Below are positions 1-29,633 of a stretch of DNA of 64,000 bases, one piece after another. The stretch comes from a virus (taxonomy: Duplodnaviria; Heunggongvirae; Uroviricota; Caudoviricetes). The notes beneath the pieces were generated by a model that saw nothing but the letters and a program-made list of their open reading frames with translations, was not told the origin of the DNA and did not search any database. The stretch covers positions 19,682 through 83,681 of IMG/VR virus record IMGVR_UViG_3300049919_000280; one strand, given 5' to 3'. Numbering within the stretch: position 1 is the first letter of the stretch; each line of letters starts with the position of its first letter. The translations under genes and the position numbers were made by a program.

Positions 1-35
1 CACACGGTCAATCCAATTTATTTAAGGAGAATGCA

Positions 36-161
36 ATGCAGCGAAATATTTACGCAAAAGAATTGCGCTCTCTTGGGCAGTTCAAGCAAAAGGTAGTGGA
101 TTCAAAGAAGGGTCGAGGTTCTTGGAAGCGGAAAGAGAAGCATCGAGTTTCCGAGGATTGA
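36..161 (+). CDS. small basic ORF (41 aa); may be the 3' end of a gene entering from upstream of the window
   Basis: AAGGAG sits 6 nt before the ATG at 36. The same frame stays open back to base 3, so the true start may be upstream. Confidence 0.25.
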   Translation: MQRNIYAKELRSLGQFKQKVVDSKKGRGSWKRKEKHRVSED

Positions 162-171
162 CAAAGATTTA

Positions 172-247
172 CTCTCAGTCGGTTAGCGGCTATACCACCT
201 CGTTTGGGGCGAGGATTTCGTGTGTTCGAGTCACACCTGAGAGACCA
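172..247 (+). tRNA. tRNA-Pro (anticodon UGG), CCA encoded
   Basis: Hand-folded cloverleaf: acceptor ctctcag/ctgagag; anticodon stem cctcg/cgagg with loop tttgggg; 5-nt variable loop; T arm gtgtg-ttcgagt-cacac; discriminator A then CCA. Confidence 0.7.
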
Positions 248-539
248 GAATTAAGATAGCGACGAGTATGGTCTAGAACAGAAACATCGCCGTAAATCGA
301 GGACTGGTAGGTTAGGCAACCTCGTTAAAAAGCCTACCCCAGATTTTAGAATGGAAGGATGTTGCAGATAAGTTAAAGTATTTGGAACAGTAAAAGAATT
401 CAAAGCAGTCGCATTCGGTTAATATCTGGATGGATGTGTGATGATAGGCAGATGTCAGTCTGCTCACGGTGCCGAAACTCATCGTGCTAGGGAGAAGTTG
501 GATACCGAAATCCGAAGCAAATGGGTTATACTTAACGAA

Positions 540-585
540 AGTGGTCTAATAAAACGGATACTTCCGTACCATATTAGTTGAGTAC
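540..585 (+). repeat. short member of the AAGTGGT ... CGGWTACTTC element family
   Basis: aagtggtctaataaaacggatacttccgtacc shares AAGTGGT and CGGATACTTC with the copies at 3012, 4473, 4634 and 4826. A local hairpin acgga/tccgt can form. Confidence 0.35.
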
Positions 586-780
586 CAAATGTTAAGATTG
601 GTCTAGTGGAATTGATCACCACGAAAACTGAGAGGATGCAGTGTATAAATGCCGACAAAGTTTCAAATATTTTTCGAGTAGGGCATTCTCGTCTAATGTC
701 AAAACGCTAAGACATCCGTAGGGTGTTGATCACGTTAGCGCAATCTGGGTACGATCTTAGACCAGAAAGAATTTGGTAGA

Positions 781-881
781 GTGTAAATTTGTGGAACGGC
801 GAAGTAGGAGAGTCGCGGCTGACTGTAAATCAGTTCCCTCTGGGTGAGTAAATTCGAATTTTACTTCCACAAATTTACACT
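781..881. repeat. 16-bp perfect inverted repeat (gtgtaaatttgtggaa / ttccacaaatttacac) enclosing 69 bp, just upstream of ORF 909
   Basis: Exact reverse-complement arms at 781-796 and 866-881. The enclosed segment contains the hairpin ctga-ctgtaaa-tcag. Confidence 0.55.
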
Positions 882-908
882 TTGGCCACTTCATAACTAG
901 GAGGCATT

Positions 909-1421
909 ATGTCCATGATGTTACGTTTAAACGAAGAATATGGGACAAGATTCCAGACGTTCCGAGAATTCTGCGAACTATCCGAATCGTTCAAACCAAA
1001 ACATACAGAATTCGGAACCGATGGTAAAAACGGAAAGTGGAACGAGAACGAATCCCATCACTGGACTTTCTTCTCTCATAAACCAGATCACCATGCATTC
1101 GTCCATTTGAGTAAGGAGTCTGGAGAATTTGGTTTCGGCACTCATCGTGGAGAATTTACCGACGATGTTGCAAATCACTACGATGAAGAACCAAAACATG
1201 TTGGCGAAGCATTGTCCGTGATGAATAAGGCGTTGCATGTCGCAGTGACGGGGGCAAAGGAGCATAGTCTAAAGCAGATTTTCATTCATGGTGCGAATAA
1301 CCACCTGAAACAAGTTTACGATAAGGCAATAGGAAACAAGTTTCTTCAGAAGCATATGGAAAGTCATGGATTCAAGTATTCGCATTCGTTTAAGGATCGG
1401 CATTACTTTTCTGCAGTATGA
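909..1421 (+). CDS. hypothetical protein (170 aa)
   Basis: Long ORF with the RBS aggagg 7 nt upstream. No family recognised. Confidence 0.7.
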   Translation: MSMMLRLNEEYGTRFQTFREFCELSESFKPKHTEFGTDGKNGKWNENESHHWTFFSHKPDHHAFVHLSKESGEFGFGTHRGEFTDDVANHYDEEPKHVGEALSVMNKALHVAVTGAKEHSLKQIFIHGANNHLKQVYDKAIGNKFLQKHMESHGFKYSHSFKDRHYFSAV

Positions 1422-1426
1422 TCAGT

Positions 1427-1509
1427 GCGGGAGTAGCCTAGAGGTCAGGCACCTGATTTCCAATCAGGCAGACGAGAGTCGCACGCAGGTTCAAATCCTG
1501 TCCCCCGCT
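1427..1509 (+). tRNA. type II tRNA (long variable arm); anticodon loop tttccaa gives UCC by position, so identity is unresolved
   Basis: Acceptor gcgggag/cccccgc with one A-C mismatch; 3-bp D stem gcc/ggc; anticodon stem cctga/tcagg; 16-nt variable arm with a gac-gaga-gtc hairpin; T arm gcagg-ttcaaat-cctgt. No CCA is encoded. Confidence 0.5.
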
Positions 1510-1548
1510 CACGAATTTCTCTTTTAAATCAACGAGTTACTGAAATTG

Positions 1549-1576
1549 TTGCATTCTCCTGTGATGTCTGTATAAT
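1549..1576 (+). promoter_or_regulatory. promoter TTGCAT-N16-TATAAT with upstream box AAATCAACGAGTTAC (1526-1540) and leader CATCGGAAC ... GGAG
   Basis: This is one member of a cassette repeated at least 10 times in the window; see findings. Confidence 0.5.
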
Positions 1577-1611
1577 TCATCACATCGGAACACAAACACA
1601 GGAGAAACATC

Positions 1612-1995
1612 GTGGCCTACGTCAACAAAGAAGTCATCGCAAAGTGTCGTGCTGGTGCAGCGGCAATTCGTAAACAGTATGGCATCAAGATGACGTTTTC
1701 AGTGAATCATGGATCGACTTTGGTTTGTAACATCGCCAGCGGTAATGTCGATTTCTTTGGTCAGATGACCGAGAAGAGTGCATCATATGCTGACGGAAAG
1801 TATTGCCAAGTGAATCATTACCACCTCGATTCCAGTTTCAAGGGAGAGGCTCTGGAATGTCTAGAAGCAATAAAGACTTTGATGCACGTCGATCATTGGG
1901 ATGAGTCCGATATCATGACCGATTATTTTTGCACATCATTTTACGTTAATATCCACGTGGGTAAATGGAACAAACCATACGTTTGTGTGGCATAA
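1612..1995 (+). CDS. hypothetical protein (127 aa), GTG start
   Basis: ORF directly follows the promoter/leader cassette (ggagaaacatcGTG). Confidence 0.55.
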   Translation: MAYVNKEVIAKCRAGAAAIRKQYGIKMTFSVNHGSTLVCNIASGNVDFFGQMTEKSASYADGKYCQVNHYHLDSSFKGEALECLEAIKTLMHVDHWDESDIMTDYFCTSFYVNIHVGKWNKPYVCVA

Positions 1996-2000
1996 GAATC

Positions 2001-2095
2001 AGTCCTGTAGTTTAATGGTAAAACTCCGAGCTTATACCTCGGCATTGCGGCTAGATTGGCTGATGATTTCGGTTCGAATCCGGACGGGACTACCA
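2001..2095 (+). tRNA. tRNA-like gene with a perfect anticodon arm (ccgag-cttatac-ctcgg, anticodon UAU, Ile-like) but about 25 extra nt between the anticodon and T arms; CCA encoded
   Basis: Acceptor agtcctg/cgggact; D arm gttt-aatggta-aaac; T arm ttcgg-ttcgaat-ccgga. At 95 nt it is too long for a normal tRNA. The next ORF starts 2 nt after the CCA. Confidence 0.4.
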
Positions 2096-2096
2096 A

Positions 2097-2366
2097 ATGA
2101 AAGTTGTTCATTGCAAGAAAGACCCTTTCGATATATACATCGGAAGACCAAGTAAATGGGGAAACCCATTTGAGATTGGGAAAGATGGTGATAGGAAAGC
2201 CGTTATATTGAAGTATGCGGCTTGGATACAAAAGCAACCAGACCTTCTTAGAGACATTTCAGAATTGAAGGGCAAGGTTCTTGGTTGTTGGTGCTATCCG
2301 AAAGCGTGTCATGGTGATGTTCTTTTGAGGTTGGCTAATGAATCCAGCTTATCTGATTTTATGTAA
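2097..2366 (+). CDS. DUF4326-like small protein (89 aa)
   Basis: The pattern GNPF ... GCWCYP ... CHGDVL resembles the DUF4326 family, which is often linked to ADP-ribose processing genes. Confidence 0.5.
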   Translation: MKVVHCKKDPFDIYIGRPSKWGNPFEIGKDGDRKAVILKYAAWIQKQPDLLRDISELKGKVLGCWCYPKACHGDVLLRLANESSLSDFM

Positions 2367-2381
2367 AGGGTTGGAGGTAAA

Positions 2382-2891
2382 ATGATATCAGTAAAAGAAA
2401 TATTCGCTAGGCGGCTTCAAGAGATGTTTGATTCTCCTTGGCCGACGACGGAAGATCAGGATGCGACTACTGCTGCCAATGATGACGTAAAGAACAGAAA
2501 ATTGCCGGTGTCTAGTGTTAAGGTATATGATCTTGGCGACGATAACGGTAAGATGATCACATACGTTCGCAACGGTGCATTGGAAGTGCATCATCAGGAC
2601 AATTCTGGGATATCTGGGGTTCTCCATCTAGGGAGAAATAAACCAAATCCAAGATTCGTTGGGACTATGATGCGACATCTTTTGAAGCACGGTCTAGAAA
2701 AGTCACATCCTGTTCGGATCATCGCGAAACAAAAGTTGTTCGTCCGGTATAAGTCTTTGATCGATAAACTGCTGAATCAGAAACTGTATCGGGTGGTTTA
2801 TTCGGAAGAAACTGTGGATGGTCAAGTTGTAGAAACTGCGACTATATATCCAAGGAATAAGATTTCGGAAGAGTATTTTCCGAAGTTTTGA
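2382..2891 (+). CDS. hypothetical protein (169 aa)
   Basis: Long ORF with RBS ggagg. Confidence 0.6.
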   Translation: MISVKEIFARRLQEMFDSPWPTTEDQDATTAANDDVKNRKLPVSSVKVYDLGDDNGKMITYVRNGALEVHHQDNSGISGVLHLGRNKPNPRFVGTMMRHLLKHGLEKSHPVRIIAKQKLFVRYKSLIDKLLNQKLYRVVYSEETVDGQVVETATIYPRNKISEEYFPKF

Positions 2892-2898
2892 AGTTTAT

Positions 2899-3007
2899 GG
2901 GGAGGTAATTCAGTTGGTAGAAGAGTGACAATCGGATAGTTATTGGGCAGGCGTCCTAGCTTGATTGTTGCGTTACGTCGGTGGTTCAAGTCCATCCCTC
3001 CCCACCA
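2899..3007 (+). ncRNA. tRNA-like RNA (109 nt) with acceptor, D and T arms plus CCA, but the anticodon arm is replaced by a 6-bp helix with a 29-nt loop
   Basis: Acceptor ggggagg/cctcccc followed by A-CCA; D loop agttggtag; T arm ggtgg-ttcaagt-ccatc; central helix acaatc/gattgt. No canonical anticodon stem-loop can be drawn. Confidence 0.4.
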
Positions 3008-3011
3008 ATAT

Positions 3012-3080
3012 TGACGTGGTGAAAAGAAATCGGTTACTTCATTTGGCGAAATCAATACCGAATTCTGAATGTTCCCGTCA
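3012..3080 (+). ncRNA. copy of the about 70-nt repeat-family element (gacgtggtg ... cggttacttc ... gaaa ... ataccg ... tgttccc)
   Basis: Near-colinear with the copies at 4634-4713 and 4826-4893. It lies immediately 3' of the tRNA-like gene. Confidence 0.4.
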
Positions 3081-3087
3081 TGAACTA

Positions 3088-3118
3088 CCGCGAAGCTAAA
3101 GACATCGCGGTTTTCTTG
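3088..3118 (+). terminator. rho-independent terminator (ccgcga-N11-tcgcgg followed by TTTTCTT)
   Basis: 6-bp GC-rich stem followed by a T tract. Confidence 0.6.
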
Positions 3119-3309
3119 CTTAAGGGACGATAAAGATGTGTCGTCGTGACATGAAGATTTGTCGCGACGATAATTAAGTAGAAACGGAGTCTATGACTCC
3201 ATCGGCGAACGTGGTAGCCGTTTCTGTGGCCGAAGTGATCACTGGGCAGCAGTAGCTAAGTCAAAATCAACTCTTCCAGATTATCGGACTAAATCTGACC
3301 AAATTCAAT

Positions 3310-3386
3310 GCATCCGTGGTCTAATTGTATAAGGCATCGCACTTCTAATGCGAACGATGGGAGTTAGAATCTCTCCGGGTGCACCA
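3310..3386 (+). tRNA. tRNA-Arg (anticodon UCU), CCA encoded
   Basis: Acceptor gcatccg/cgggtgc with a G-U pair; D arm gtct-aattgtata-aggc; anticodon stem tcgca/tgcga with loop cttctaa; T arm gggag-ttagaat-ctctc. Confidence 0.75.
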
Positions 3387-3420
3387 AAATACGTTGTAAA
3401 ATCAACGAGTTACAAATATC

Positions 3421-3449
3421 TTGCTTCTGCATTCACATGTCTGTATAAT
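3421..3449 (+). promoter_or_regulatory. promoter TTGCTT-N17-TATAAT with upstream AAAATCAACGAGTTAC box (3398-3413)
   Basis: Cassette member. Leader ttacatcgaaacaacaaacggagtaaacatcATG. Confidence 0.55.
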
Positions 3450-3483
3450 TCATTACATCGAAACAACAAACGGAGTAAACATC

Positions 3484-3834
3484 ATGAGCAAAAACATCGG
3501 ATACCACACTCGCCTGATCAGCAACAACGCAACAAAGGTTTGTGGCGGATCGTTTGGTGGCGAGGTTAGTGCTGATACGGTGGCCCGTTTGGTCAAGTCG
3601 CACTTTGATGTCGCAGTCAAGCCTTCTGGCGCTGTTGTTTTTGTTGATAAGAGTGGTCGCGAAGTTTCACTTTATCTCACAGTTGATCCGATGACTACTG
3701 ATATCGGCAAGGTTGCTAAGAAAGAATGGCTTGCTAAACGCAGTGCGGAACAAGACGAGTCTCGCGAAAAAATCGAGAGTCTTATGGCTGGACTTGATGA
3801 TGCTGAAATTATTCGTCGGTTGTCTGATTATTAA
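3484..3834 (+). CDS. hypothetical protein (116 aa)
   Basis: ATG follows the cassette leader. The track ORF 3348 overlaps tRNA-Arg, so the start was moved to 3484. Confidence 0.65.
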   Translation: MSKNIGYHTRLISNNATKVCGGSFGGEVSADTVARLVKSHFDVAVKPSGAVVFVDKSGREVSLYLTVDPMTTDIGKVAKKEWLAKRSAEQDESREKIESLMAGLDDAEIIRRLSDY

Positions 3835-3845
3835 GGAGATTTGCA

Positions 3846-4004
3846 ATGTGCTGCGAAGGATGGTATTACGATGACAAATGTGTCGATGGGGAGTGTCCAG
3901 ACTGCGGAGAACCCACTGTCGACGGCGAAGCCCAATCTGGTTGCCATTATTCGCCTTGCTCCTGCCAGACATGTAACTCTCGCCCGTGCGACGGAAGTTG
4001 TTGA
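3846..4004 (+). CDS. Cys-rich small protein (52 aa)
   Basis: AAGGAG RBS. The product has 11 Cys arranged in CxxC-like pairs. Confidence 0.45.
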   Translation: MCCEGWYYDDKCVDGECPDCGEPTVDGEAQSGCHYSPCSCQTCNSRPCDGSC

Positions 4005-4016
4005 CGGGAGTATAAA

Positions 4017-4142
4017 ATGAATATGCTAACATTAGAAGAAGCGTATGCCGAACATGTACATGTTCATAAAACCTTCGGAATCAAAGTGATGACCATCGAA
4101 CAATTCAGTGAATTTTGGAACCTCTTTCAGGAGACCAAATAA
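4017..4142 (+). CDS. small ORF (41 aa)
   Basis: Weak RBS gggag. Below the ORF-track cutoff. Confidence 0.3.
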   Translation: MNMLTLEEAYAEHVHVHKTFGIKVMTIEQFSEFWNLFQETK

Positions 4143-4437
4143 AGAAGTAGGTGCCAAGCTTATCATTCTGTTCCCTATGGATTGATGGCTTAAACAGGCG
4201 AAAAACACTCTTGATGTAGAGAGCCCATAGCTCAAGAGTGTCCTCATTTAAACTATGGGAGCGACTGTCGTCGTAGGTATGAGTTGCCAAAGACCATCAG
4301 AAAATGATTTAGGGATCATGAGTATGATGACAGAATAAATGGAGAGTTAACTGCTAAGGTAGCAGCGGGACTTGCTAAGTCTCTGGTCCCTGTAATATGG
4401 GATGGGAATCGTGATCTCAGCTCTCCTCCAATATTAC

Positions 4438-4466
4438 TTGACTTTGCAGAGCGATTAATGTAAAAT
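4438..4466 (+). promoter_or_regulatory. strong sigma70-type promoter TTGACT-N17-TAAAAT that fires into element E0
   Basis: Consensus-like hexamers with 17-bp spacing. The predicted start (about 4473) coincides with the conserved gaagtggt motif. Confidence 0.55.
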
Positions 4467-4472
4467 GTTTGA

Positions 4473-4590
4473 AGTGGTAAAGATTCAGCAGTAAAAGTTT
4501 TAATCCGTAGTGTAGGCATCAGTTACTTCAATGCTAATGACGAGGTGGTGGTTCGAATCCACCCAACACAAATCTGATTTGTGTTGAAGC
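4473..4590 (+). ncRNA. candidate small RNA E0: repeat-family motifs plus a perfect tRNA T-arm (ggtgg-ttcgaat-ccacc) and a 3' hairpin caacacaaat-ctg-atttgtgttg
   Basis: No ORF is present. It has its own promoter. It shares gaagtggt and cagttacttc..gctaatga with R1/R2. No acceptor or anticodon arms can be drawn, so it is not a real tRNA. Confidence 0.45.
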
Positions 4591-4633
4591 TCATGGATGA
4601 GCGCGAAAATCTCTGATGCCGTCTGTTCTCGGA

Positions 4634-4713
4634 AATGATTTATTTTAAAGTGGTGTGGATTGCGGTTACTTCCTTATAGACGAAACTTATACCGTGGTCG
4701 TTTGTTCCCTTTA
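4634..4713 (+). ncRNA. repeat-family element R1 (ttttaaagtggtgtgg ... cggttacttcc ... gaaac ... ataccgtggtcg tttgttcccttta)
   Basis: About 75% identical to R2 and to the 3012 copy. Substitutions keep the cggt/accg pairing (acgg/ccgt in R2). Confidence 0.4.
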
Positions 4714-4728
4714 ATTATGATGTATAAT

Positions 4729-4804
4729 TCCCTAGTAGCTCAGCTGGCAGAGCGTGGTGCTGTTAACACCGAGGTCACTCGTTCGAACCGAGTCTGGGGA
4801 GCCA
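4729..4804 (+). tRNA. tRNA-Asn (anticodon GUU), CCA encoded
   Basis: Acceptor tccctag/ctgggga; D arm gctc-agctggca-gagc; anticodon stem tggtg/caccg with loop ctgttaa; T arm actcg-ttcgaac-cgagt. Confidence 0.8.
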
Positions 4805-4825
4805 AAATTTGTAGTAGTTGTGAGT

Positions 4826-4893
4826 TTTAAAGTGGTGTAGACTAACGGTTACTTCTCGCTAATGAAACCATGCCGTAGTCATTTGTTCCCTTT
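4826..4893 (+). ncRNA. repeat-family element R2, directly upstream of the Ro60-like gene
   Basis: ttttaaagtggtgtagactaacggttacttctcgctaatgaaaccatgccgtagtcatttgttcccttta. It ends 15 nt before the ATG at 4909. Confidence 0.4.
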
Positions 4894-4908
4894 ACTTGGA
4901 GATTTAAA

Positions 4909-6342
4909 ATGTCGTCAATCAACAAAAAAGTTGAAGCAGAAAAGATTTACACTGATGGCGGAGCGATTGCTTCTCGCATCACTAAGATTCAAGAGCTTGA
5001 GCGAACTGTTATGTCCTGCATGCTGTGGGAAGATTCATACAGCGAAAGTGGCGTTAAAGTTGCAGATCGCATTAAGGAATTGGTGCATTCATGCAAGCCA
5101 GATGCTGTTGCAAAGATTGCTATTTCGGCACGTACCGATATGCATCTTCGTCACGTCCCGCTTTTCCTAGTTCGTGAGTTGGCTCGGCATGCTATGTCGC
5201 CTTCATATCCTAAACTCGTCGCGAATACTCTGACTGCAGTTATCCAGCGACCAGATGAAATTGCCGAATTCATGGCAATCTATCAGAAGGATGGAAAGCA
5301 GCCGCTGTCGAAGCAGGTTAAGATCGGTCTGGCTAATGCGTTCAAAAAATTCAACGAGTATAGCCTCGCAAAGTATTCTAGCGAAGGCAAGGAGTATTCG
5401 CTTCGTGATGTGTTGTTCCTAGTTCATGGCAAGCCTGCAGACGTTCCTGCTGATGCCACGAAGTATGATCGTGCTGCCCGTGTTATTGGTGTGAATCGCC
5501 AACTAACTGCAGGCGAGGCTCTGTATCGTCGTGTGTCAGAAAACGCTCTTGTGACCCCAGATACTTGGGAAGTCGAGTTGAGTTCTGGTGCGGATAAGGC
5601 GGAGACTTTTGTTCGCCTGATGGAAGAAGGCACTTTGGGTGCAATGGCGTTCCTGCGCAATCTTCGTGGTATGAAGGAAGCTAAAGTTCCGAAGATTAAT
5701 ATCAAGGAATATGCAGAAAAGGTAAAGGTTGACAAAATCCTACCGTTCCGATTTATCGCGTCTGCACGAGCGGTTCCTGAATGGGAAGATGTTATCGAGC
5801 CAATGATGCTGCGTTGCTTGGGTGGTCTGCCGAAGCTTTCTGGTAAGACTGTGTTCATTGTTGATATCTCTGGTTCCATGGGGCAACCTATTTCCAGCAA
5901 ATCAACTATGCGTCGTTATGATGCTGCGATGGCTCTTGTTATTCTGGCCAAGGAAATGTGCGAGGATGCTGTCATCTACGCAACTGCTGGTAGTGATGGA
6001 CAAGGCATTCATGCAACCGAAGTAATCCCTAATCGGAAAGGGTTTGCCATTGCCGATGCTCTTCGCAGCATGAACGCCAAGTTGGGTTTCGGTGGTATTT
6101 TCTTGAAGCAGACTTTGGATTACGTTCATGAAAGGGAATTGACTGCGGATCGAGTGATTGTATTCACCGATGAAATCGACTGCGATCATAAATGCAACCC
6201 TGCAGATGCGAAGGCGTTTGGTGGCAGCAATTACATCGTTAACATCGCTTCTCAGCGTAATGGAATTGCATACAACAAATTCACTCATATCGATGGGTGG
6301 AGTGAGCAGGTAATGGCTTTCATCCAAAAGTTGGAAGCATAA
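4909..6342 (+). CDS. rsr: Ro60/Rsr-like RNA-binding protein (helical N-terminal region plus C-terminal vWA domain with MIDAS motif DISGSMG)
   Basis: 477 aa. The vWA motif VFIVDISGSM ... TDEID sits at residues about 305-420 behind a roughly 300-aa helical N-terminal region, which is the TROVE+vWA layout. The gene is embedded among tRNA and tRNA-like RNAs, as in known rsr/Y-RNA loci. TROVE assignment is from memory, not from a search. Confidence 0.5.
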   Translation: MSSINKKVEAEKIYTDGGAIASRITKIQELERTVMSCMLWEDSYSESGVKVADRIKELVHSCKPDAVAKIAISARTDMHLRHVPLFLVRELARHAMSPSYPKLVANTLTAVIQRPDEIAEFMAIYQKDGKQPLSKQVKIGLANAFKKFNEYSLAKYSSEGKEYSLRDVLFLVHGKPADVPADATKYDRAARVIGVNRQLTAGEALYRRVSENALVTPDTWEVELSSGADKAETFVRLMEEGTLGAMAFLRNLRGMKEAKVPKINIKEYAEKVKVDKILPFRFIASARAVPEWEDVIEPMMLRCLGGLPKLSGKTVFIVDISGSMGQPISSKSTMRRYDAAMALVILAKEMCEDAVIYATAGSDGQGIHATEVIPNRKGFAIADALRSMNAKLGFGGIFLKQTLDYVHERELTADRVIVFTDEIDCDHKCNPADAKAFGGSNYIVNIASQRNGIAYNKFTHIDGWSEQVMAFIQKLEA

Positions 6343-6349
6343 AGGTTTA

Positions 6350-6421
6350 GCCGGTTTAGCTCAGTGGTAGAGCAACCGCCTTGTAAGCGGTAGGTCGTCT
6401 GTTCAATCCAGACAGCCGGCA
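6350..6421 (+). tRNA. tRNA-Thr (anticodon UGU)
   Basis: Acceptor gccggtt/agccggc; D arm gctc-agtggta-gagc; anticodon stem accgc/gcggt with loop cttgtaa; T arm gtctg-ttcaatc-cagac. No CCA is encoded. Confidence 0.8.
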
Positions 6422-6552
6422 TATAAATTTAGCACCATCTGTCTAATACCCATCAGCATATGGGAACTTAAACCACCACACATCTTGCGCAAGATTAACC
6501 GTGGATTGCTACAACTCAAATTGACAATGAGTTGGATGGTGCTAAATTTATG
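6422..6552. repeat. 17-bp perfect inverted repeat (ataaatttagcaccatc / gatggtgctaaatttat) enclosing 95 bp that include the 14-bp palindrome atcttgcgcaagat
   Basis: Arms at 6422-6439 and 6534-6552. Internal hairpin cccat-cagcat-atggg. Confidence 0.5.
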
Positions 6553-6581
6553 TTGATTTTAATATGTAAACGCGGTATAAT
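6553..6581 (+). promoter_or_regulatory. sigma70-type promoter TTGATT-N17-TATAAT for the helicase gene
   Basis: Consensus spacing. The track's ATG at 6582 lies inside this promoter, so the CDS start was moved to 6609. Confidence 0.6.
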
Positions 6582-6608
6582 ATGCGTTCATCTTCTTATA
6601 GGATTATT

Positions 6609-7901
6609 ATGGCTGATTACGCAAAACTAGCAACCAAGATGCTTGGGTTCCCTCTAAACGAAGACCAGAACGCTGCAATAAGCGAGATCGTAGAATGGGC
6701 AAACCAACCTCTTGCGGTCTCACCGTACAAAACACTGGGTGGGTATGCTGGAACTGGAAAGTCAACAATCGTAAAGGTTATCGTTAGCCTAGTTTCTAGT
6801 AACACTGCACTGTGCGCACCAACAAACAAAGCGGTTAAGGTTCTTAAGTCTCTAGGGACTGGACGAACATGCATGACCATTTATTCTCTTCTTGGTCTTC
6901 GTATGTCACAGCATGAGGATAAGCTAAAGCTCGAAAAGGCGTTGAAGGATAAGGTCGGCAGTTATAATCTAATCATCATCGATGAGGCTGGAATGATTGG
7001 CGAAGAACTTCTTGACTATATCGAGACAGCAACAAAGATGTATGGCGTTAAAGTTCTTTTCGTTGGTGACCCCGGCCAGTTGAATCCTATTGGAGAAGAC
7101 CTCTCTGAGATTTGGGGGCGTTATCCAATGATCATCCTTCGCAAGGTTGAGCGTCATGACAATCAGATTCTGGATTTTGCTACTCATATTCGCTCAACAA
7201 AAATTACTGCTCTTCGTTATGAAAATAATAACGATGGTATCGAGGGGGTATGGGATTTGGATATGACAAAATTCAAGGGTACCATCAAGGACTATGCAGC
7301 GGCTGGTTCTTTCCACGGAACAAAAAGTCGTGTTCTAGCATGGAGAAATAAAACTGTTGATGAATATAATGAATTCATTCGGCATTGCATCCATGGGGTT
7401 AGGGCTAAGAAAGAAGAATGGATTGAGGGGGATCGTGTAGTATTCACCGCACCGTTTGGCGATGATATCATTACAGACGACGAAGGCTATGTTAGGTCAA
7501 TGTCGGTTGGGTTCAGTCGAGATTATCCAAGATTCAAGTGCATCCATCTTGAAGTAATGTTGAACGACGAATATCCAATCATCGTACCAATTATTCATCC
7601 TGACTCAGATGATGATTATGTTGACGAACTCAGTCTAATATCCATGCAGGCTAGGAAATATAAAGAGGCAAAGGATTTTAAGGCTTCTGGTGCAAAGTGG
7701 AAAGAATACTGGACTCTCGTTGATTCCTTCGTGAAGATAAAGCATGGTTACGCACTTACCGCACATCGGGCACAAGGATCGACTTATGAGAACGTTTTCG
7801 TTGATGTTAGTGACATTCTAACGAACAGCAATCGCAAAGAAGCTAAGCGGTGTTTATATGTTACTGCAACCAGACCTACAACTAGGTTGTTCCTGACATG
7901 A
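6609..7901 (+). CDS. dda: Dda-like SF1B DNA helicase (430 aa)
   Basis: Walker A GYAGTGKST; C-terminal motif ALTAHRAQGSTYENVFVD typical of the RecD/Dda family. Size matches T4 Dda (439 aa). Confidence 0.7.
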   Translation: MADYAKLATKMLGFPLNEDQNAAISEIVEWANQPLAVSPYKTLGGYAGTGKSTIVKVIVSLVSSNTALCAPTNKAVKVLKSLGTGRTCMTIYSLLGLRMSQHEDKLKLEKALKDKVGSYNLIIIDEAGMIGEELLDYIETATKMYGVKVLFVGDPGQLNPIGEDLSEIWGRYPMIILRKVERHDNQILDFATHIRSTKITALRYENNNDGIEGVWDLDMTKFKGTIKDYAAAGSFHGTKSRVLAWRNKTVDEYNEFIRHCIHGVRAKKEEWIEGDRVVFTAPFGDDIITDDEGYVRSMSVGFSRDYPRFKCIHLEVMLNDEYPIIVPIIHPDSDDDYVDELSLISMQARKYKEAKDFKASGAKWKEYWTLVDSFVKIKHGYALTAHRAQGSTYENVFVDVSDILTNSNRKEAKRCLYVTATRPTTRLFLT

Positions 7902-8240
7902 GAAGGGGGCATAAAGAGCTTCCACACCATGAGTTTAAACGGGAGCCGGTGAGGATACCTAAAGATGAGTTCTCTTGGTGGCATGCCGTTTTCTTGGTGA
8001 TTCTTTTAATATTTTTGTATAACTTGATGGGGTGAAACGTGGAAAAGTATATTTGGTTTGGATTTATCGTAGTGTGGTTTGGATGGTTCGCAAAAATCTA
8101 TATCGATATTATGATCGCAGCATTCAAGAAGCGTAACGAAAACTGTTCCTCATAATTTACATTGTAAACAATTAGAAACATTCTGCGTGGGTTGTCTGCC
8201 ATCACGTAGTCTCATTTGAGGCAGAAATTTTAATAGGGAA

Positions 8241-9444: not shown

Positions 9445-10254
9445 ATGTCAAAAATTAAAGATGCGCTTGGAGACAAGCTAAAGGAATATGAAATGGTTGA
9501 AGCTGGTCGGCGATGCATGAAAGGTCTGCCGATTGTCGCTAGACTTGATGGTCGTGCGTTTAGCAGCTTCACCAAAGGTCTGGCTCGACCTTATGATATT
9601 CGCATGAGCGCAGCGATGGTGGAGACCACGAAGTATTTGGTTGCCACCACTGGCGCTTTAATTGGTTACTGTCAGAGCGATGAAATTTCACTCCTATACT
9701 TCGTTGAAGCTGATGGGGTTGAGGATTATGCTTTTTCAGGCAGGTTCCAGAAACTAACCAGTATCCTCGCATCGACTGCTTCTGTCATGTTTTACTCTGA
9801 AGTGATTAAAAACATTCCAGAAAAGGCAGACAAACTTCCTGTGTTTGATTGCCGCATCATGCAACTTCCAACCAAAGAGATTGCAGCTGAGTGCTTCAAG
9901 TGGCGTGAATTGGATGCGACAAAGAATGCTGTTAGCATGGCTGCACATTCGATGATTCCACACAAAGAACTCGAAGGGCTCAAGGGCTGGCAAAAGCAGG
10001 AGTTAATGTTTAGTCGATTCGGCGTCAATTTCAACGATTACCCAGTGTTCTTTAAGCGTGGGACTTATGTCCGTAAGGAACCCATCCTTATCCCACTGGA
10101 CGAAGAGACACGAAATAAAATTCCAGCGGATAGGAGACCACCAAAGGGATTTTCGGTAATTCGTAATATGATGGCAGAACTTGATTGGGAGCCATGTACC
10201 AAGTATGATTCGGTTGAATGGACCAACATGATTTTTGGCGATGAGCCTAATTGA
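9445..10254 (+). CDS. Thg1-like protein (tRNA-His guanylyltransferase / 3'-5' polymerase family)
   Basis: VARLDGRAFSSF, GYCQSDEISLLY, FDCRIMQLP and KWRELDATKNA match Thg1 motifs VVRLDGRNFHRF, YGQSDEYSF, FDGRVVVYP and SWRQADCHINN (recalled from memory). Confidence 0.75.
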   Translation: MSKIKDALGDKLKEYEMVEAGRRCMKGLPIVARLDGRAFSSFTKGLARPYDIRMSAAMVETTKYLVATTGALIGYCQSDEISLLYFVEADGVEDYAFSGRFQKLTSILASTASVMFYSEVIKNIPEKADKLPVFDCRIMQLPTKEIAAECFKWRELDATKNAVSMAAHSMIPHKELEGLKGWQKQELMFSRFGVNFNDYPVFFKRGTYVRKEPILIPLDEETRNKIPADRRPPKGFSVIRNMMAELDWEPCTKYDSVEWTNMIFGDEPN

Positions 10255-21382: not shown

Positions 21383-22186
21383 ATGAGTGTAAAATTATTT
21401 GGTGGGAATCAGTTCATCGAGCTTAAATGGTGGGATTTCCCTGCAGGCGAGCGTGGGGTTAAGATCGTTGATCCGTTGGATATTGAGCGATACAAGTCAT
21501 TCACGGTGCATTGCTTGTTCAAGGGTTCGAGCGACCTGATTGATGTTATGCTTCTGGTAAATGCCTGCCGTAATGTTATGGGAACGGTGAAGTTGCGTCT
21601 GCAGATTCCATATTTTCCTTATGCTCGGCAGGATCGGGTTTCTGTTGCAGGAGAATCGTTTTCATTGCAGATTGCTGCGGATGTCATCAAGTCATGCAAC
21701 TTCTATGAGGTTGAAGTCTGGGATGCACATAGTGACGTTCTTGCTGGAATGTTTCCAGCAGGTGTCTTGAAGAATAAGACACAAGCTGAACTGGCAGATA
21801 TCTTTTTCATTCTAGGCGGATATTCTTCTGATCAGGTTGCCATCATTTCACCTGACGCTGGAGCCCTGAAGAAAATTTATGCGGTTGCCAAGCGGATCAA
21901 TTGTGATGTAATTTGTGCAAGCAAGAATCGTGATCCGAAGACTGGCAATATCACTGAGACGACGATTGACAGCAGTGAGTTTCATCGGTATGATAGAATG
22001 GTAATTGTGGATGATATCTTAGATGGCGGAAAAACATTTTTGGATTTGGGTAATCTCATTCGAAAAACATATTCCGGAGAACTTGGGTTGCACGTAACAC
22101 ACGGGCTATTTACCAAGGGTAAGGATGCGCTTCTGGAAAATTTTGATGGTATTAGCGCGGCCATCGACTACACTGAAACTAATTGA
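21383..22186 (+). CDS. truncated ribose-phosphate pyrophosphokinase (Prs) homolog; candidate ADP-ribose pyrophosphokinase (Adps)
   Basis: VKLFGGNQFIEL, IPYFPYARQDRV, IISPDAGAL and VIVDDILDGGKTF align with E. coli Prs MKLFAGNATPEL, IPYFGYARQDRR, VVSPDIGGV and VLVDDMIDTGGTL. It is 267 aa versus 315. Confidence 0.7.
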   Translation: MSVKLFGGNQFIELKWWDFPAGERGVKIVDPLDIERYKSFTVHCLFKGSSDLIDVMLLVNACRNVMGTVKLRLQIPYFPYARQDRVSVAGESFSLQIAADVIKSCNFYEVEVWDAHSDVLAGMFPAGVLKNKTQAELADIFFILGGYSSDQVAIISPDAGALKKIYAVAKRINCDVICASKNRDPKTGNITETTIDSSEFHRYDRMVIVDDILDGGKTFLDLGNLIRKTYSGELGLHVTHGLFTKGKDALLENFDGISAAIDYTETN

Positions 22187-22197
22187 GGAGTAATATT

Positions 22198-23946
22198 ATG
22201 GGACGATTTAAGCAGACTGCATTGACTTCAGTGGATAGTTACAAAACGGCACATGCCGATATGCTACCCACTGGAACTGAGCAAATTTACAGCAACTTCA
22301 CTCCTCGTTCAATGAAGCACTTCAATGTGCCGGAAGAGTACAAGGCAGACAAGAAGATCGTTTGGGTTGGCCTGCAGGCATTCATGTACGAGTTGAAGGA
22401 AGTGTGGCAAGAGACCTTCTTCGAGCGTCATGTTGATGCGGTATGTAATGAATTTTCTGAATTCGTCGCCCCGTTTGCTGGCCCTCGTGGCTTCAACATT
22501 GAACGGGTTCGCGCATTACACAAACTTGGGTATCTGCCAATTCGCATCAAGTCACTACCAGAAGGTTCGCGGGTTAATGTTGGAGTTCCATGCCTGACTA
22601 TCACCAACACGGTAAGCGAATTTGCATGGCTTACGAACTATCTGGAAACTTGGATTAGTTGCGAAATGTGGAAGATTTGTACGAGTGCCACTACCGCTGC
22701 AGTGTATCGCAAGATTTGTGAGAAATATGCAGACCTTACTGGTGGATCGAAGGAATTCATTCAATGGCAATGCCATAATTTTGCGGATCGTGGGCAAAGT
22801 GGAATCCAAGATGCTGCGAAGTCTGGTGTTGGTCACTTGCTGAGTTTCACCGGCACAGATTCATTGTCTTCTGTTAAGCTGATCAATGACGTTTATGAAG
22901 GCAAAAAGACATTTGTTGGCGGTAGTGTTCCTGCCTCCGAACATATGGTGCAATGTGCAGGTTCGATGGAAGGTGAGTTGGAAACATATCGTCGCCTGAT
23001 CAAGGATTACCCTAGCGGTGTTGTTTCTATCGTGTCAGATACTTGGAATTTTTGGGATGTCATCACTAAGACTGCAGCTACTCTGAAAGAAGAAATTCTT
23101 GCTCGGGTTCCTGATCAGTTTGGATTGGCAAAGGTCGTGTTCCGCCCAGATTCTGGTGATCCGGTTGATATCATTTGTGGCGATGAAATTCGTGATATTT
23201 CTAGCTATCTAACCGAAAATTCGACAATTGAAGCGATAGGTGCGGAAGCGGTAGATTTCCTAAGCGGTGCAGTATTTATCAAAACCCCTCATGGTGAGTG
23301 TGGTGACAGCAGCCCCTCAGCGATATTCAAATGTTTCGGTAAATACTACAAAGTAACAGCTAACATCGAATGGAATCGTTACGACAAGCAGTATTATTAC
23401 ATCGATGGCAGCAACCTAGAATCAATTGAAGAAGTCCAATTGTCTCCGGCGCAAAAGGGCGCAGTAGAATGTCTCGCTGAAATTTTTGGCACCACCACTA
23501 ATGACAAGGGATTCAAAACTCTGAATCAACGAGTTGGTTTGATTTATGGCGACAGCATCACTCCGCAGCGTGCCATTGCGATTTTCGAGCGACTTGCAGC
23601 TAAGGGATATGCCAGCGACAATATCGTTTTTGGGGTGGGTAGTTATACTTACTCCTATGTAACTCGGGACTCACTAGGTTTCGCAATGAAGGCAACTAAC
23701 GTCGTTATCAATGGCGAAAGTCGAGCGATTTTCAAAGACCCAGCCACTGACACTGACAAGACCAAGAAGTCTGCAAAGGGTCTTCTTCGAGTTGATCGAG
23801 TTGGCAAGGACTTTGTGCTGCGGGATAACGTCACTGCAGAAGAGGAAGCTGGTGGCGAGTTGAAAGTCGTGTTTGAAAACGGCAACATCTTGTCGAGAGA
23901 GAACTTTGCGGACATGCGCAGCCGTTTGGAATTGGCTTCTCAGTAG
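22198..23946 (+). CDS. nicotinamide phosphoribosyltransferase family enzyme (Nampt/NadV-like; candidate Namat)
   Basis: The N-terminal TDSYKTAH motif matches Nampt TDSYK. Large (582 aa) and directly 3' of the Prs homolog. Confidence 0.6.
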   Translation: MGRFKQTALTSVDSYKTAHADMLPTGTEQIYSNFTPRSMKHFNVPEEYKADKKIVWVGLQAFMYELKEVWQETFFERHVDAVCNEFSEFVAPFAGPRGFNIERVRALHKLGYLPIRIKSLPEGSRVNVGVPCLTITNTVSEFAWLTNYLETWISCEMWKICTSATTAAVYRKICEKYADLTGGSKEFIQWQCHNFADRGQSGIQDAAKSGVGHLLSFTGTDSLSSVKLINDVYEGKKTFVGGSVPASEHMVQCAGSMEGELETYRRLIKDYPSGVVSIVSDTWNFWDVITKTAATLKEEILARVPDQFGLAKVVFRPDSGDPVDIICGDEIRDISSYLTENSTIEAIGAEAVDFLSGAVFIKTPHGECGDSSPSAIFKCFGKYYKVTANIEWNRYDKQYYYIDGSNLESIEEVQLSPAQKGAVECLAEIFGTTTNDKGFKTLNQRVGLIYGDSITPQRAIAIFERLAAKGYASDNIVFGVGSYTYSYVTRDSLGFAMKATNVVINGESRAIFKDPATDTDKTKKSAKGLLRVDRVGKDFVLRDNVTAEEEAGGELKVVFENGNILSRENFADMRSRLELASQ

Positions 23947-29631: not shown

Positions 29632-29633
29632 AG

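What the first reader, a model, noticed from the sequence alone, without database searches (positions are those of the whole stretch)
2001..3007. Two tRNA-like genes with intact acceptor, D and T arms and encoded CCA, but a 25-33 nt insertion in the anticodon/variable region
The gene at 2001-2095 has a perfect UAU anticodon arm but is 95 nt long. An unpaired segment of about 25 nt sits where a 4-5 nt variable loop belongs. The gene at 2899-3007 is 109 nt long. No anticodon arm can be drawn, and a 6-bp helix with a 29-nt loop stands in its place. Both are too long for canonical tRNAs and too short for group I introns. They could be tRNA mimics (as in YrlA-type Y RNAs), tRNAs with an unusual small intron, or decoys or regulators of tRNA-targeting nucleases. 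Each is followed directly by another feature: an ORF start 2 nt after the CCA, and a repeat-family copy 5 nt after the CCA.
Basis: seen in the sequence. Interest (0 to 1): 0.65.

Follow-up and report, generated by a model that had tools for sequence, protein, structure and literature searches.

The report
Two phage tRNA genes with insertions
In a T4-like phage that also encodes a Ro60 protein and its Y RNAs, one over-long gene is probably a working isoleucine tRNA with a conserved extra arm found in many phages, and the other is a tRNA-shaped RNA whose anticodon arm is replaced by a long hairpin, so it probably cannot decode.

Summary
Both genes exist at the stated coordinates, but they are different things.

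2001-2095 is a tRNA-Ile(UAU), called by ARAGORN and by Rfam (56.8 bits). Its 25-nt variable region is not unpaired: it forms a hairpin with an AGAU loop. The same extra arm recurs in tRNA-Ile(UAU) genes of at least 15 other viral contigs and one cultured phage, with covarying stem pairs. AUA is 20% of this phage's Ile codons. It is most likely a working decoder of an undescribed class-II-like subfamily.

2899-3007 keeps a perfect acceptor stem, T arm, D arm, all 13 checked core nucleotides and CCA. A 47-nt irregular hairpin replaces the anticodon arm. An alternative stem exposes a U33-GUU (Asn) loop behind a 35-nt insert (0.2% of shuffles). No homologue exists, so selection cannot be tested.

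The window has a Ro60 gene (4909-6342), and the "repeat family" after the CCA is the real Y-RNA family (four copies). A covariance model of the Y-RNA stem hits held-out tRNA-shaped Y RNAs elsewhere (26-49 bits) but not the 109-nt element. Its nearest relatives are unassigned "tRNA-OTHER/pseudo" genes of large phages.

The parts
2001..2095 (+). tRNA-Ile(UAU), 95 nt with encoded CCA; anticodon at 2033-2035; class-I body (4-bp D stem, 7-nt D loop) plus a 25-nt variable region
   Evidence: ARAGORN; Rfam RF00005 at 56.8 bits; family alignment with covariation in all stems
2043..2067 (+). Variable region of the tRNA-Ile; hairpin CGGCUA-GAU-UGGCUG at 2048-2062, presenting the conserved AGAU
   Evidence: Fold. 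The same arm, GGCU-AGAU(A/U)-(A/G)GCC, occurs in 15 viral contigs. AGAU loops also occur in L039 and L016, which were found without the pattern, and in Acinetobacter phage qsb1. Closing pairs covary.
2899..3007 (+). tRNA-shaped RNA gene, 109 nt with encoded CCA; acceptor, D and T arms intact, anticodon arm replaced
   Evidence: Rfam tRNA at 38.8 bits with a local skip of the anticodon arm; not called by ARAGORN; all checked core nucleotides intact
2925..2971 (+). 47-nt irregular hairpin in place of the anticodon arm (10 bp, GAU bulge, 5 bp, UU bulge, 4 bp, AGGC loop)
   Evidence: Minimum-energy and centroid folds, -36.5 kcal/mol, z = -1.9; unique sequence with no other copy in the window or in 90 loci; not matched by Y-RNA stem model R1
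2931..2965 (+). Inferred 35-nt insertion between tRNA positions 32 and 33 (boundary ambiguous by 1 nt)
   Evidence: Enumeration of cloverleaf readings
2966..2976 (+). UGUUGC, the remnant anticodon loop with GUU at 2967-2969, followed by GUUAC, the alternative 3' strand of a canonical anticodon stem
   Evidence: Alternative fold at -32.3 kcal/mol. A GUU reading occurs in 0.2% of 20,000 shuffles and any reading in 3.3%. KVP40 Pseudo-4, which shares the acceptor and T arms, has the loop AUGUUAA.
3013..3079 (+). Hairpin-type Y RNA (Y-h1), the 'repeat-family copy' after the CCA: GACGUGGUGAAAA - upper stem - GUUACUUC ... UGUUCCCGUC
   Evidence: Motif; fold; member of the family alignment A1, whose lower stem covaries
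3087..3117 (+). Terminator-like hairpin CCGCGA...UCGCGG followed by UUUUCUU; it would end the unit ORF1612 - tRNA-Ile - DUF4326 - ORF2382 - 109-nt RNA - Y-h1
   Evidence: Fold and direct reading of the sequence; not listed by the stricter scan
1427..1510 (+). tRNA-Gly(UCC), 84 nt, with a 16-nt variable arm (GAC-GAGA-GUC hairpin); a third over-long tRNA in the same cluster
   Evidence: ARAGORN; Rfam at 55.2 bits; 87-nt homologue in L058
4506..4625 (+). Permuted YrlA-type Y RNA (Y-A): closing stem GGCAUCAG/CUGAUGCC around a V hairpin, T arm, closed 10-bp acceptor-like stem and D-like arm
   Evidence: Fold with z = -3.4; module motif; layout matches Chen et al. 2014
4645..4715 (+). Hairpin-type Y RNA (Y-h2)
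4828..4895 (+). Hairpin-type Y RNA (Y-h3)
4909..6342 (+). Ro60/Rsr orthologue (TROVE plus Ro60 vWA domain), the presumed partner of the Y RNAs
   Evidence: Pfam PF05731 at 2.7e-13 and PF25045 at 1.6e-06; 49 viral relatives

Best explanation
The two genes are tRNA genes of a T4-like, Ro60-encoding phage, and each carries a hairpin insertion at a different place, with different consequences.

(1) 2001-2095 is a working tRNA-Ile(UAU). It supplies decoding of AUA, as the other U34 tRNAs of the cluster do for their A-ending codons. Its insertion sits in the variable position, the one place where a tRNA tolerates an extra arm. That arm is a conserved feature of a widespread phage subfamily of tRNA-Ile(UAU). 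The stem covaries and the loop keeps AGAU, so it is probably a recognition handle for a protein that has not been identified (inferred).

(2) 2899-3007 derives from an ordinary phage tRNA, probably an Asn(GUU)-type, by a 35-nt hairpin insertion into the anticodon loop. In the stable fold the insert and the 5' stem strand pair with the old loop, giving a 47-nt rod with no anticodon. The acceptor stem, elbow and CCA are intact. The RNA should therefore still be cut out of its polycistronic transcript by RNase P and 3' trimming, and should accumulate as a stable, non-decoding tRNA mimic. In this it resembles the unassigned 'tRNA-OTHER/pseudo-tRNA' genes of other large phages and T4's RNA C and RNA D (inferred).

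Shown: sequence features, folds, family membership of element 1, non-membership of element 2 in the Y-RNA family, and the genomic context. Inferred: expression, processing, aminoacylation and function.
For: Element 1:
- ARAGORN and Rfam both call it.
- The subfamily was found in 15 viral contigs, in L039 and L016 without using the motif, and in cultured Acinetobacter phage qsb1. Lactobacillus phage 3-521 also has an over-long tRNA-Ile(UAU), with a different arm loop.
- All four stems and the extra arm covary.
- AUA is 20% of Ile codons, and the tRNA set matches the phage's A-ending codons.

Element 2:
- Rfam tRNA score of 38.8 bits, above the gathering score.
- 13 of 13 checked core nucleotides, 7/7 acceptor pairs, 5/5 T-stem pairs and CCA are intact.
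- The long hairpin is the minimum-energy and centroid fold.
- The GUU reading occurs in 0.2% of shuffles.
- The acceptor and T arms are 90-93.5% identical over 31 nt to Milchi 'tRNA-OTHER' and KVP40 'tRNA-Pseudo-4'.
- KVP40-type elements persist in divergent T4-like phages with a covarying insert hairpin, while their anticodon-like triplet drifts (AUGUUAA, ACGUUGA, GUAGAAA). This shows that non-decoding tRNA-shaped RNAs can be maintained.
- T4 RNA C and RNA D are real stable RNAs of the tRNA cluster with unknown role.
- Packing is tight: 7 nt after the upstream stop codon and 5 nt before Y-h1.
Against: - Element 2 has no homologue in viral, metagenome or phage collections. Neither conservation nor covariation of its hairpin can be shown, and a recently inactivated pseudogene would look the same.
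- Its hairpin z-score is modest (-1.9).
- It lacks the conserved insert motif of the KVP40 group.
- For element 1, 10 of the 12 aligned sequences were retrieved with a pattern that forced GGCTAGAT, so the invariance of the loop is partly built in. The Lactobacillus phage arm has a different loop.
- There are no expression, processing or charging data for either RNA.
Confidence: 0.5

Rival explanations
1. 2899-3007 is a dead tRNA gene. A tRNA (Asn- or Ile-like) was recently hit by a 35-nt insertion in the anticodon loop and has not yet decayed. It may still be processed but has no function.
For: The phage is a singleton with no homologue, so there is no evidence of selection. The loop remnant is already non-canonical: G37, C38, and only 3 nt left for the variable loop in the cloverleaf reading. 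The window already has a normal tRNA-Asn(GUU) at 4729-4804. GenBank annotators label similar genes as pseudo.
Against: All changes are confined to the anticodon arm, while 13 of 13 core positions, both remaining stems and CCA are perfect. Phage genomes are compact and this gene is tightly packed between an ORF and a Y RNA. Analogous anticodon-less genes are maintained in other large phages.
Confidence: 0.25
2. 2899-3007 is a Ro60-associated RNA: a non-permuted, Y-RNA-like tRNA mimic that works with the phage Ro60, alone or as one unit with the adjacent Y-h1 hairpin.
For: It lies 1.9 kb upstream of Ro60 on the same strand, within the 4-kb rule of Chen et al. 2014. It lies 5 nt from a bona fide Y RNA. 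Non-permuted tRNA-shaped Y RNAs do exist in L020 and L021. GUUACGUC after the helix resembles the family's GUUACUUC and the published YUAY.
Against: The Rsr-binding motif (GNCGAAN0-1G, here GUGGYGNAG) and the UGUUCCC strand are absent. Model R1 gives no hit at E<=10, while held-out positive controls score 26-49 bits. Y RNAs rarely abut tRNAs in other loci, 3 of 46. Similar elements in KVP40 and Milchi have no Y-RNA module nearby.
Confidence: 0.1
3. 2899-3007 is a precursor of a functional tRNA-Asn(GUU). The 35-nt insert is a small protein-dependent intron, for example cut in the long helix by a host double-strand RNase and resealed by the phage RNA ligase.
For: A canonical stem and a U33-GUU loop can be reconstituted. 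Two other phage genes read as tRNAs with 45-47-nt inserts at the anticodon loop: KVP40 Pseudo-4 and L017 Gln(UUG). The phage encodes an RNA ligase, an RNA-repair HAD domain and a kinase-like protein.
Against: There is no bulge-helix-bulge motif and no group I or ribozyme match at E<=10. The insert is at 32/33, not 37/38. The spliced product would have G37, C38 and a 3-nt variable loop. In the KVP40 group the anticodon-like triplet is not conserved while the insert is. No such splicing pathway is known in bacteria (my own knowledge; literature searches found none).
Confidence: 0.07
4. The extra arm of tRNA-Ile(UAU) is a neutral, tolerated hairpin insertion of the same kind as in the other over-long class-I tRNAs of these phages, with no function of its own.
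For: Long variable arms of unrelated sequence occur on Gly, Gln, Asn, Glu, Asp and Pro tRNAs in related contigs. The variable position is structurally permissive. The Lactobacillus phage arm has another loop.
Against: AGAU recurs in arms found without the motif (L039, L016, qsb1). This holds across tRNA bodies whose acceptor, anticodon and T stems have diverged, with compensatory changes in the arm stem.
Confidence: 0.25

Closest known systems
Class II tRNAs (Leu, Ser, bacterial Tyr) and nematode nev-tRNAs (Hamashima et al. 2011, PMC3333845)
   Same: Element 1 has a base-paired extra arm in the variable position. nev-tRNAs likewise combine a V-arm with Ile or Gly anticodons. The window's two long-armed tRNAs are Ile(UAU) and Gly(UCC).
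   Different: The phage tRNA has a class-I body (4-bp D stem, 7-nt D loop) with an arm added. nev-tRNAs derive from tRNA-Leu and are charged with Leu. The phage arm has a conserved loop sequence, which class II arms generally lack. Charging was not tested here.
YrlA and YrlB bacterial and phage Y RNAs bound by Rsr/Ro60 (Chen et al. 2014, PMC4201824)
   Same: Same genomic setting: within 4 kb of a Ro60 gene on the same strand. Same general idea of a tRNA mimic lacking an anticodon. M. smegmatis YrlA even gets an RNase P cut and CCA.
   Different: Element 2 is not permuted and lacks the Rsr-binding motif and stem. The window's true Y RNAs are 3013-3079, 4506-4625, 4645-4715 and 4828-4895.
Unassigned tRNA genes of large phages: KVP40 tRNA-Pseudo-4 and -5, Cronobacter S13 t23 and t24, Pseudomonas phage Milchi tRNA-OTHER
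   Same: All are tRNA-shaped genes in phage tRNA clusters with intact acceptor, D and T arms and an enlarged or replaced anticodon arm. The acceptor and T arms of Pseudo-4 and Milchi match element 2 (90-93.5% over 31 nt). Milchi also ends its anticodon helix in a tetraloop.
   Different: The KVP40 and S13 elements come as tandem pairs and share a conserved insert (a covarying hairpin plus AUUCAGCA), which element 2 lacks. Their inserts are 3' of the loop. None has a known function.
Phage T4 stable RNAs C and D (species 1 and 2)
   Same: They are non-tRNA stable RNAs encoded at the end of the tRNA cluster of a T4-type phage. RNA C carries a canonical T arm (CCGGGUUCGAAUCCCGG). Their function is unknown.
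   Different: There is no detectable sequence similarity to element 2. They are 119 and 139 nt long and arranged in tandem. The cloverleaf-like core is much less complete.

Membership tests
Canonical tRNA (Rfam RF00005) | Score at or above the family's gathering score (29 bits) | tested here: met
   2001-2092 scores 56.8 bits. 2899-3004 scores 38.8 bits, but only with permissive filters and with the anticodon arm skipped.
Canonical tRNA (Rfam RF00005) | 5-bp anticodon stem with a 7-nt loop (U33, purine 37) | tested here: inconclusive
   Met for 2001-2095 (CCGAG-CUUAUAC-CUCGG). For 2899-3007 it is absent in the minimum-energy fold and ARAGORN makes no call. It is possible only as an alternative fold with a 35-nt insert in the loop.
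Canonical tRNA (Rfam RF00005) | Universally conserved core nucleotides and 7-bp acceptor stem | tested here: met
   Element 2 has 13 of 13 checked positions and 7/7 pairs. Element 1 aligns over the full Rfam model.
Class II (long variable arm) tRNA | Variable region longer than 10 nt forming a stem-loop | tested here: met
   Element 1 has 25 nt with a 6-bp hairpin, recovered by RNAalifold with covariation.
Class II (long variable arm) tRNA | Leu, Ser or Tyr isotype with the class-II D-arm architecture | tested here: not met
   The anticodon is UAU. The D stem has 4 bp and the D loop 7 nt. What counts as class-II D-arm architecture is from my own knowledge.
YrlA-type Y RNA | Encoded within 4 kb of a Ro60/TROVE gene on the same strand | tested here: met
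   Ro60 lies at 4909-6342. Element 2 is 1.9 kb upstream and element 1 is 2.8 kb upstream. Criterion taken.
YrlA-type Y RNA | Rsr-binding motif GNCGAAN0-1G (here GUGGYGNAG) in a bulged stem | tested here: not met
   Model R1 of the stem gives no hit on 2925-2980 at E<=10. Held-out controls score 26-49 bits. The motif is absent on inspection.
YrlA-type Y RNA | Permuted tRNA-like domain (V, T, closed acceptor stem-loop, D) with paired 5' and 3' ends | tested here: not met
   Both elements have open acceptor stems in normal tRNA order. 4506-4625 does have the permuted layout.
YrlA-type Y RNA | Physical binding by Ro60/Rsr | not testable with these tools
   Needs immunoprecipitation of the phage Ro60.
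Intron-containing tRNA (archaeal/eukaryal type or bacterial group I) | Bulge-helix-bulge at the splice sites with the insert at 37/38, or a group I intron fold | tested here: not met
   The bulges are both on the 5' strand (GAU, UU). The insert is at 32/33. At 35 nt it is far below group I size, and Rfam gives no intron or ribozyme match at E<=10.
KVP40-type tandem tRNA-shaped RNAs of T4-like phages | Conserved insert: a covarying 6-7-bp hairpin followed by AUUCAGCA or AUKCUGCA; genes in a tandem pair | tested here: not met
   The motif is absent from element 2 and the gene is single. Only the acceptor and T arms are similar.

The most novel reading that the evidence does not exclude
The AGAU-loop extra arm makes phage tRNA-Ile(UAU) a dedicated, phage-controlled decoder. 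In this reading the arm is a handle for a factor that modifies U34 or changes which synthetase charges the tRNA, as in nematode nev-tRNAs, where V-arm tRNAs with Ile or Gly anticodons are charged with leucine. AUA decoding in infected cells would then be tuned or even reassigned by the phage. In parallel, the anticodon-less 109-nt RNA would be a purpose-built tRNA mimic acting on a tRNA-recognising host or phage enzyme.
Probability: 0.1. Interest if true: 0.8.

Novelty: new variant of a known kind. Interest (0 to 1): 0.45.

Why it matters
If the extra arm of tRNA-Ile(UAU) is a recognition handle, it defines a class-II-like isoleucine tRNA that is widespread in phages and currently annotated as an ordinary tRNA-Ile. 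It would give a direct way to ask how phages get a U34 isoleucine tRNA charged and kept from misreading AUG.

The 109-nt RNA adds a clean example, with a perfect tRNA core and no usable anticodon, to a scattered set of 'pseudo/other' tRNA genes in large phages. These genes may be maintained mimics, like T4's RNA C and RNA D, whose roles have remained unknown since their discovery.

The context matters more than either gene. The window is a compact phage locus that combines Ro60, four Y RNAs, tRNAs, a Thg1-like enzyme and RNA-repair genes. It could serve to test what Ro60 and Y RNAs do during infection.

Tried and rejected
- Close relatives of this phage were sought for covariation on element 2, and none exists. 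Searches used: megablast of 1-7000; the flanking ORF 2382-2891 in viral and metagenome contigs and in 5.8 billion proteins, which returned only itself; DNA patterns of the element; and blastn against phages.
- L065 and L084 share the D arm and a CUAUGUC segment, but their centres are unrelated and their context differs. I did not count them as homologues.
- The Y-RNA hypothesis for element 2 was rejected by the R1 test.
- 'tRNA punctuation for Y-RNA processing' as a general rule is not supported. Only 3 of 46 Y RNAs abut a tRNA.
- A mobile or repeated insert was rejected, because the 56-nt centre is unique.
- Rfam matches to ribozymes, introns, Y RNA or tmRNA in 1-8000 at E<=10: none.
- Synteny with L058 and L063, whose tRNA-Ile is 91% identical, was absent.
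- Isotype assignment of element 2 from body similarity is ambiguous. The 3' third resembles phage Asn, Phe and Ile tRNAs, and the D arm occurs in Ile(GAU), Ile(UAU) and CAU tRNAs.
- Literature searches for phage class-I tRNAs with long arms or for short phage tRNA introns found nothing relevant. The KVP40 genome paper is not held.
Full report
**What is in the sequence.** The region 170-6420 of the + strand is a tRNA cluster.
- ARAGORN finds Pro, Tyr, Gly(UCC), Ile(UAU), Arg(UCU), Asn(GUU) and Thr(UGU).
- The gene at 2001-2095 is called tRNA-Ile(UAU) by ARAGORN. Rfam's tRNA model scores it 56.8 bits over the full model, with 22 inserted nucleotides in the variable region.
- The gene at 2899-3007 is not called by ARAGORN and is missed by Rfam's default filters. 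With permissive filters the tRNA model scores it 38.8 bits (gathering score 29), replacing the 17-nt anticodon arm by a 46-nt local skip.

- The 25-nt variable region of the first gene is not unpaired. It forms a 6-bp hairpin.
- The helix in the second gene has 10 bp and continues into a 47-nt irregular hairpin with an AGGC tetraloop.
- A third over-long tRNA, Gly(UCC) of 84 nt with a 16-nt variable arm, lies at 1427-1510.

**Context.** The window has no close relative among deposited phages.
- It is T4-like, with gp32 at 41873-42769 and a T4 baseplate protein at 45229-45936.
- It carries RNA-repair-type genes: RNA ligase 29619-30677, an RNA-repair HAD domain 28654-29301, a kinase-like AAA_33 protein and phosphoesterases. 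A Thg1-like protein lies at 9445-10254.
- The ORF at 4909-6342 is a Ro60/Rsr orthologue with TROVE and Ro60 vWA domains.
- Chen et al. 2014 define bacterial and phage YrlA RNAs by four features: location within 4 kb of Ro60 on the same strand, a 5' GNCGAAN0-1G motif, a YUAY at the start of the V loop, and a permuted tRNA-like domain.

**The 'repeat family' is the Y-RNA family.** Using the Ro60 protein I fetched 49 viral contigs.
- Nearly all carry, next to Ro60, one or more copies of a module GUGGYGNAG - 9-bp stem - GUUACUUC, paired with a 3' strand ending yUUGUUCCC. The first part fits GNCGAAN0-1G and the UUAC fits YUAY.
- The window has four copies on the Ro60 strand. Three are hairpin-type: 3013-3079, 4645-4715 and 4828-4895. 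One is a permuted YrlA-type RNA at 4506-4625, with a V hairpin, T arm, closed 10-bp acceptor-like stem and D-like arm inside a closing stem (z = -3.4).
- Rfam 15 recognises none of them.
- The first copy is the 'repeat-family copy 5 nt after the CCA'. A terminator-like hairpin follows it at 3087-3117.

**Is the 109-nt element a Y RNA?** A scanner for acceptor, D and T arms with any central length found natural, non-permuted, tRNA-shaped elements next to Ro60 in L020 and L021. In these the Y-RNA stem takes the place of the anticodon arm.
- To test the 109-nt element, I joined the 3' and 5' strands of 42 permuted or hairpin Y RNAs (a virtual un-permutation) and aligned them.
- The lower stem was not used for selection, and it covaries (up to 22 of 42 sequences changed on both sides at one pair).
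- I built covariance model R1 from this alignment.
- The held-out natural elements score 25.9-49.5 bits, E from 3e-4 to 6e-10.
- The central hairpin of the 109-nt element gives no hit at E<=10 with filters off.
- It also lacks the GUGGYGNAG and UGUUCCC motifs on inspection. It is not a Y RNA of this family.

**What the 109-nt element is.** All 13 checked universal core nucleotides are intact, along with 7/7 acceptor pairs, 5/5 T-stem pairs, a possible G15-C48 pair and CCA. Only the anticodon arm is aberrant.
- Enumerating cloverleaf readings shows that GUGAC (2925-2929) can pair with GUUAC (2972-2976) instead of GUUGC. This leaves (A)UGUUGC, a U33-GUU loop, after a 35-nt insert.
- With canonical geometry, a GUU reading arises in 0.2% of 20,000 shuffles and any reading in 3.3%.
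- The long hairpin is 4.2 kcal/mol more stable and buries the GUU.
- The insert is unique, with no other copy in the window or the fetched loci.

**Relatives of the 109-nt element.** blastn against phages matches only the T arm and 3' acceptor strand.
- The best hits fall on Pseudomonas phage Milchi 'tRNA-OTHER' (93.5% over 31 nt) and KVP40 'tRNA-Pseudo-4' (90.3%).
- Milchi's 82-nt gene has its anticodon arm replaced by a helix capped with GCAA.
- KVP40 Pseudo-4 (124 nt) keeps a 5-bp stem around AUGUUAA plus 46 nt.
- KVP40-type elements occur as tandem pairs in Vibrio D482 and F86 and in Cronobacter S13. Their conserved insert is a covarying hairpin followed by AUUCAGCA or AUKCUGCA, while the anticodon-like triplet drifts. 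So non-decoding tRNA-shaped RNAs are maintained in T4-like phages.
- The 109-nt element lacks that insert motif.
- T4 itself has RNA D and RNA C (119 and 139 nt) in tandem at the end of its tRNA cluster. Their roles are still unknown.
- No homologue of the 109-nt element itself exists in any collection searched. Selection on its hairpin cannot be shown, and a recent pseudogene remains a serious rival.

**What the 95-nt element is.** In the Ro60 contigs, three of the four tRNA-Ile(UAU) genes are over-long: the window (95 nt), L039 (92 nt) and L016 (101 nt). The fourth, in L028, is 74 nt. All three long ones have AGAU in the loop of a variable-arm hairpin.
- A pattern search for CTTATA...GGCTAGAT...GTTCGA found 15 more viral contigs. 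Their genes are full cloverleaves of 91-99 nt, and ARAGORN miscalls some as Glu.
- RNAalifold on 12 distinct sequences recovers the acceptor, anticodon, T and extra-arm helices. Compensatory changes occur in all of them, including the arm's closing pairs (CG 6, UA 3, UG 1; GC 7, GU 4, CG 1).
- One caveat applies: the pattern forced GGCTAGAT in 10 of the 12 sequences.
- Cultured phages have it too, annotated plainly as tRNA-Ile. Acinetobacter qsb1 has an 88-nt gene with arm CGA-CAGAUAA-UCG. Lactobacillus 3-521 has a 91-nt gene with a different loop.
- The body is class I (4-bp D stem, 7-nt D loop).
- AUA is 20% of Ile codons in 35 ORFs. The cluster's U34 tRNAs match the frequent A-ending codons.
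- The gene is therefore most likely a working AUA decoder whose extra arm is a conserved, probably functional, addition.
- Published precedents for V-arm tRNAs with Ile or Gly anticodons are the nematode nev-tRNAs, which are charged with Leu. Whether the phage arm affects charging is untested.

**Transcription unit.** By direct reading, a TTGCAT-16-TATAAT promoter-like site lies at 1549-1576; the stricter scan does not report it. It precedes ORF 1612-1995, tRNA-Ile (5 nt after the stop), DUF4326 (2 nt after the CCA), ORF 2382-2891, the 109-nt RNA (7 nt after the stop), Y-h1 and the terminator-like hairpin. Both RNAs would therefore have to be excised from an mRNA-containing transcript (inferred). 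Direct abutment of Y RNAs and tRNAs is not a general rule in other loci, at 3 of 46.

**Verdict.** The first gene is a tRNA of an undescribed but widespread phage subfamily. The second is a tRNA-derived, anticodon-less tRNA-shaped RNA of unknown role. It is not a Y RNA, although it sits in a genuine Ro60/Y-RNA locus.

Noticed in passing
window 3013-3079, 4506-4625, 4645-4715, 4828-4895 and ORF 4909-6342: A complete phage Ro60/Y-RNA locus. It has four Y-RNA genes (three hairpin-type, one permuted YrlA-type) upstream of a TROVE/vWA Ro60 gene. Rfam 15 detects none of the RNAs. The shared module GUGGYGNAG-stem-GUUACUUC...yUUGUUCCC occurs in nearly all of the 49 Ro60-encoding viral contigs.
   Followed up: yes
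L020 4974-5099 and 5205-5329; L021 3953-4075 and 4089-4214: These are natural non-permuted Y RNAs: tRNA-shaped genes of 123-126 nt with an open acceptor stem (one with encoded CCA), whose 'anticodon arm' is the Ro60-binding stem. They occur in tandem next to Ro60. Chen et al. 2014, as read here, describes only the permuted topology, so this looks like an undescribed variant linking tRNA and YrlA.
   Followed up: partly
L067 1285-1531 (KVP40), L074 306-548 (Cronobacter S13), L072 and L073 (Vibrio D482, F86): T4-like phages carry tandem pairs of 113-124-nt tRNA-shaped genes annotated as pseudo, OTHER or Ser. They share a conserved insert, a covarying hairpin followed by AUUCAGCA or AUKCUGCA. They may be counterparts of T4 RNA C and RNA D, but no sequence link to T4 was seen.
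   Followed up: partly
L017 and L029 652-769: A tRNA-shaped gene directly after tRNA-Gln(CUG). It reads as tRNA-Gln(UUG) with a 45-nt AU-rich insert at position 37/38 (stem CAUCC/GGAUG, loop UUUUGA|...|U). ARAGORN does not call it.
   Followed up: no
window 1427-1510; L058 (reverse complement) 318-404; L018 556-643 and 1473-1562; L025 1025-1114; L033 2365-2455; L004 600-681: Other class-I tRNAs (Gly, Gln, Asn, Glu, Asp, Pro) of 82-91 nt with hairpin variable arms recur in these phage tRNA clusters. The Gly(UCC) form is shared by the window and L058 (77% identity).
   Followed up: partly
window 9445-10254, 24664-25176, 28654-29301, 29619-30677: An RNA-repair gene set (Thg1-like protein, kinase-like AAA_33, RNA-repair HAD domain, RNA ligase) lies in the same phage as Ro60 and the Y RNAs. 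NAD-salvage genes lie at 21383-23946.
   Followed up: no
window 1528-1580 and 3398-3450: A repeated promoter-region block: AATCAACGAGTTAC, then TTGCAT or TTGCTT, a 16-nt spacer and TATAAT, then TCATYACATCGRAAC. It precedes ORF 1612 and ORF 3484 and is probably a phage-specific early or middle promoter class.
   Followed up: no
L013 4353-4739; L016 4690-5083: Phage-encoded tmRNA genes (one permuted) lie within 2 kb of the Ro60 genes in two related viral contigs.
   Followed up: no
window 3165-3309: The untranslated stretch between the terminator and tRNA-Arg holds a GTGACA-17-GATAAT promoter-like site (3146-3174) and a GCCGAAG match to GNCGAAN0-1G. Its fold is not better than shuffles (z = -0.8). 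Its nature is unclear.
   Followed up: partly
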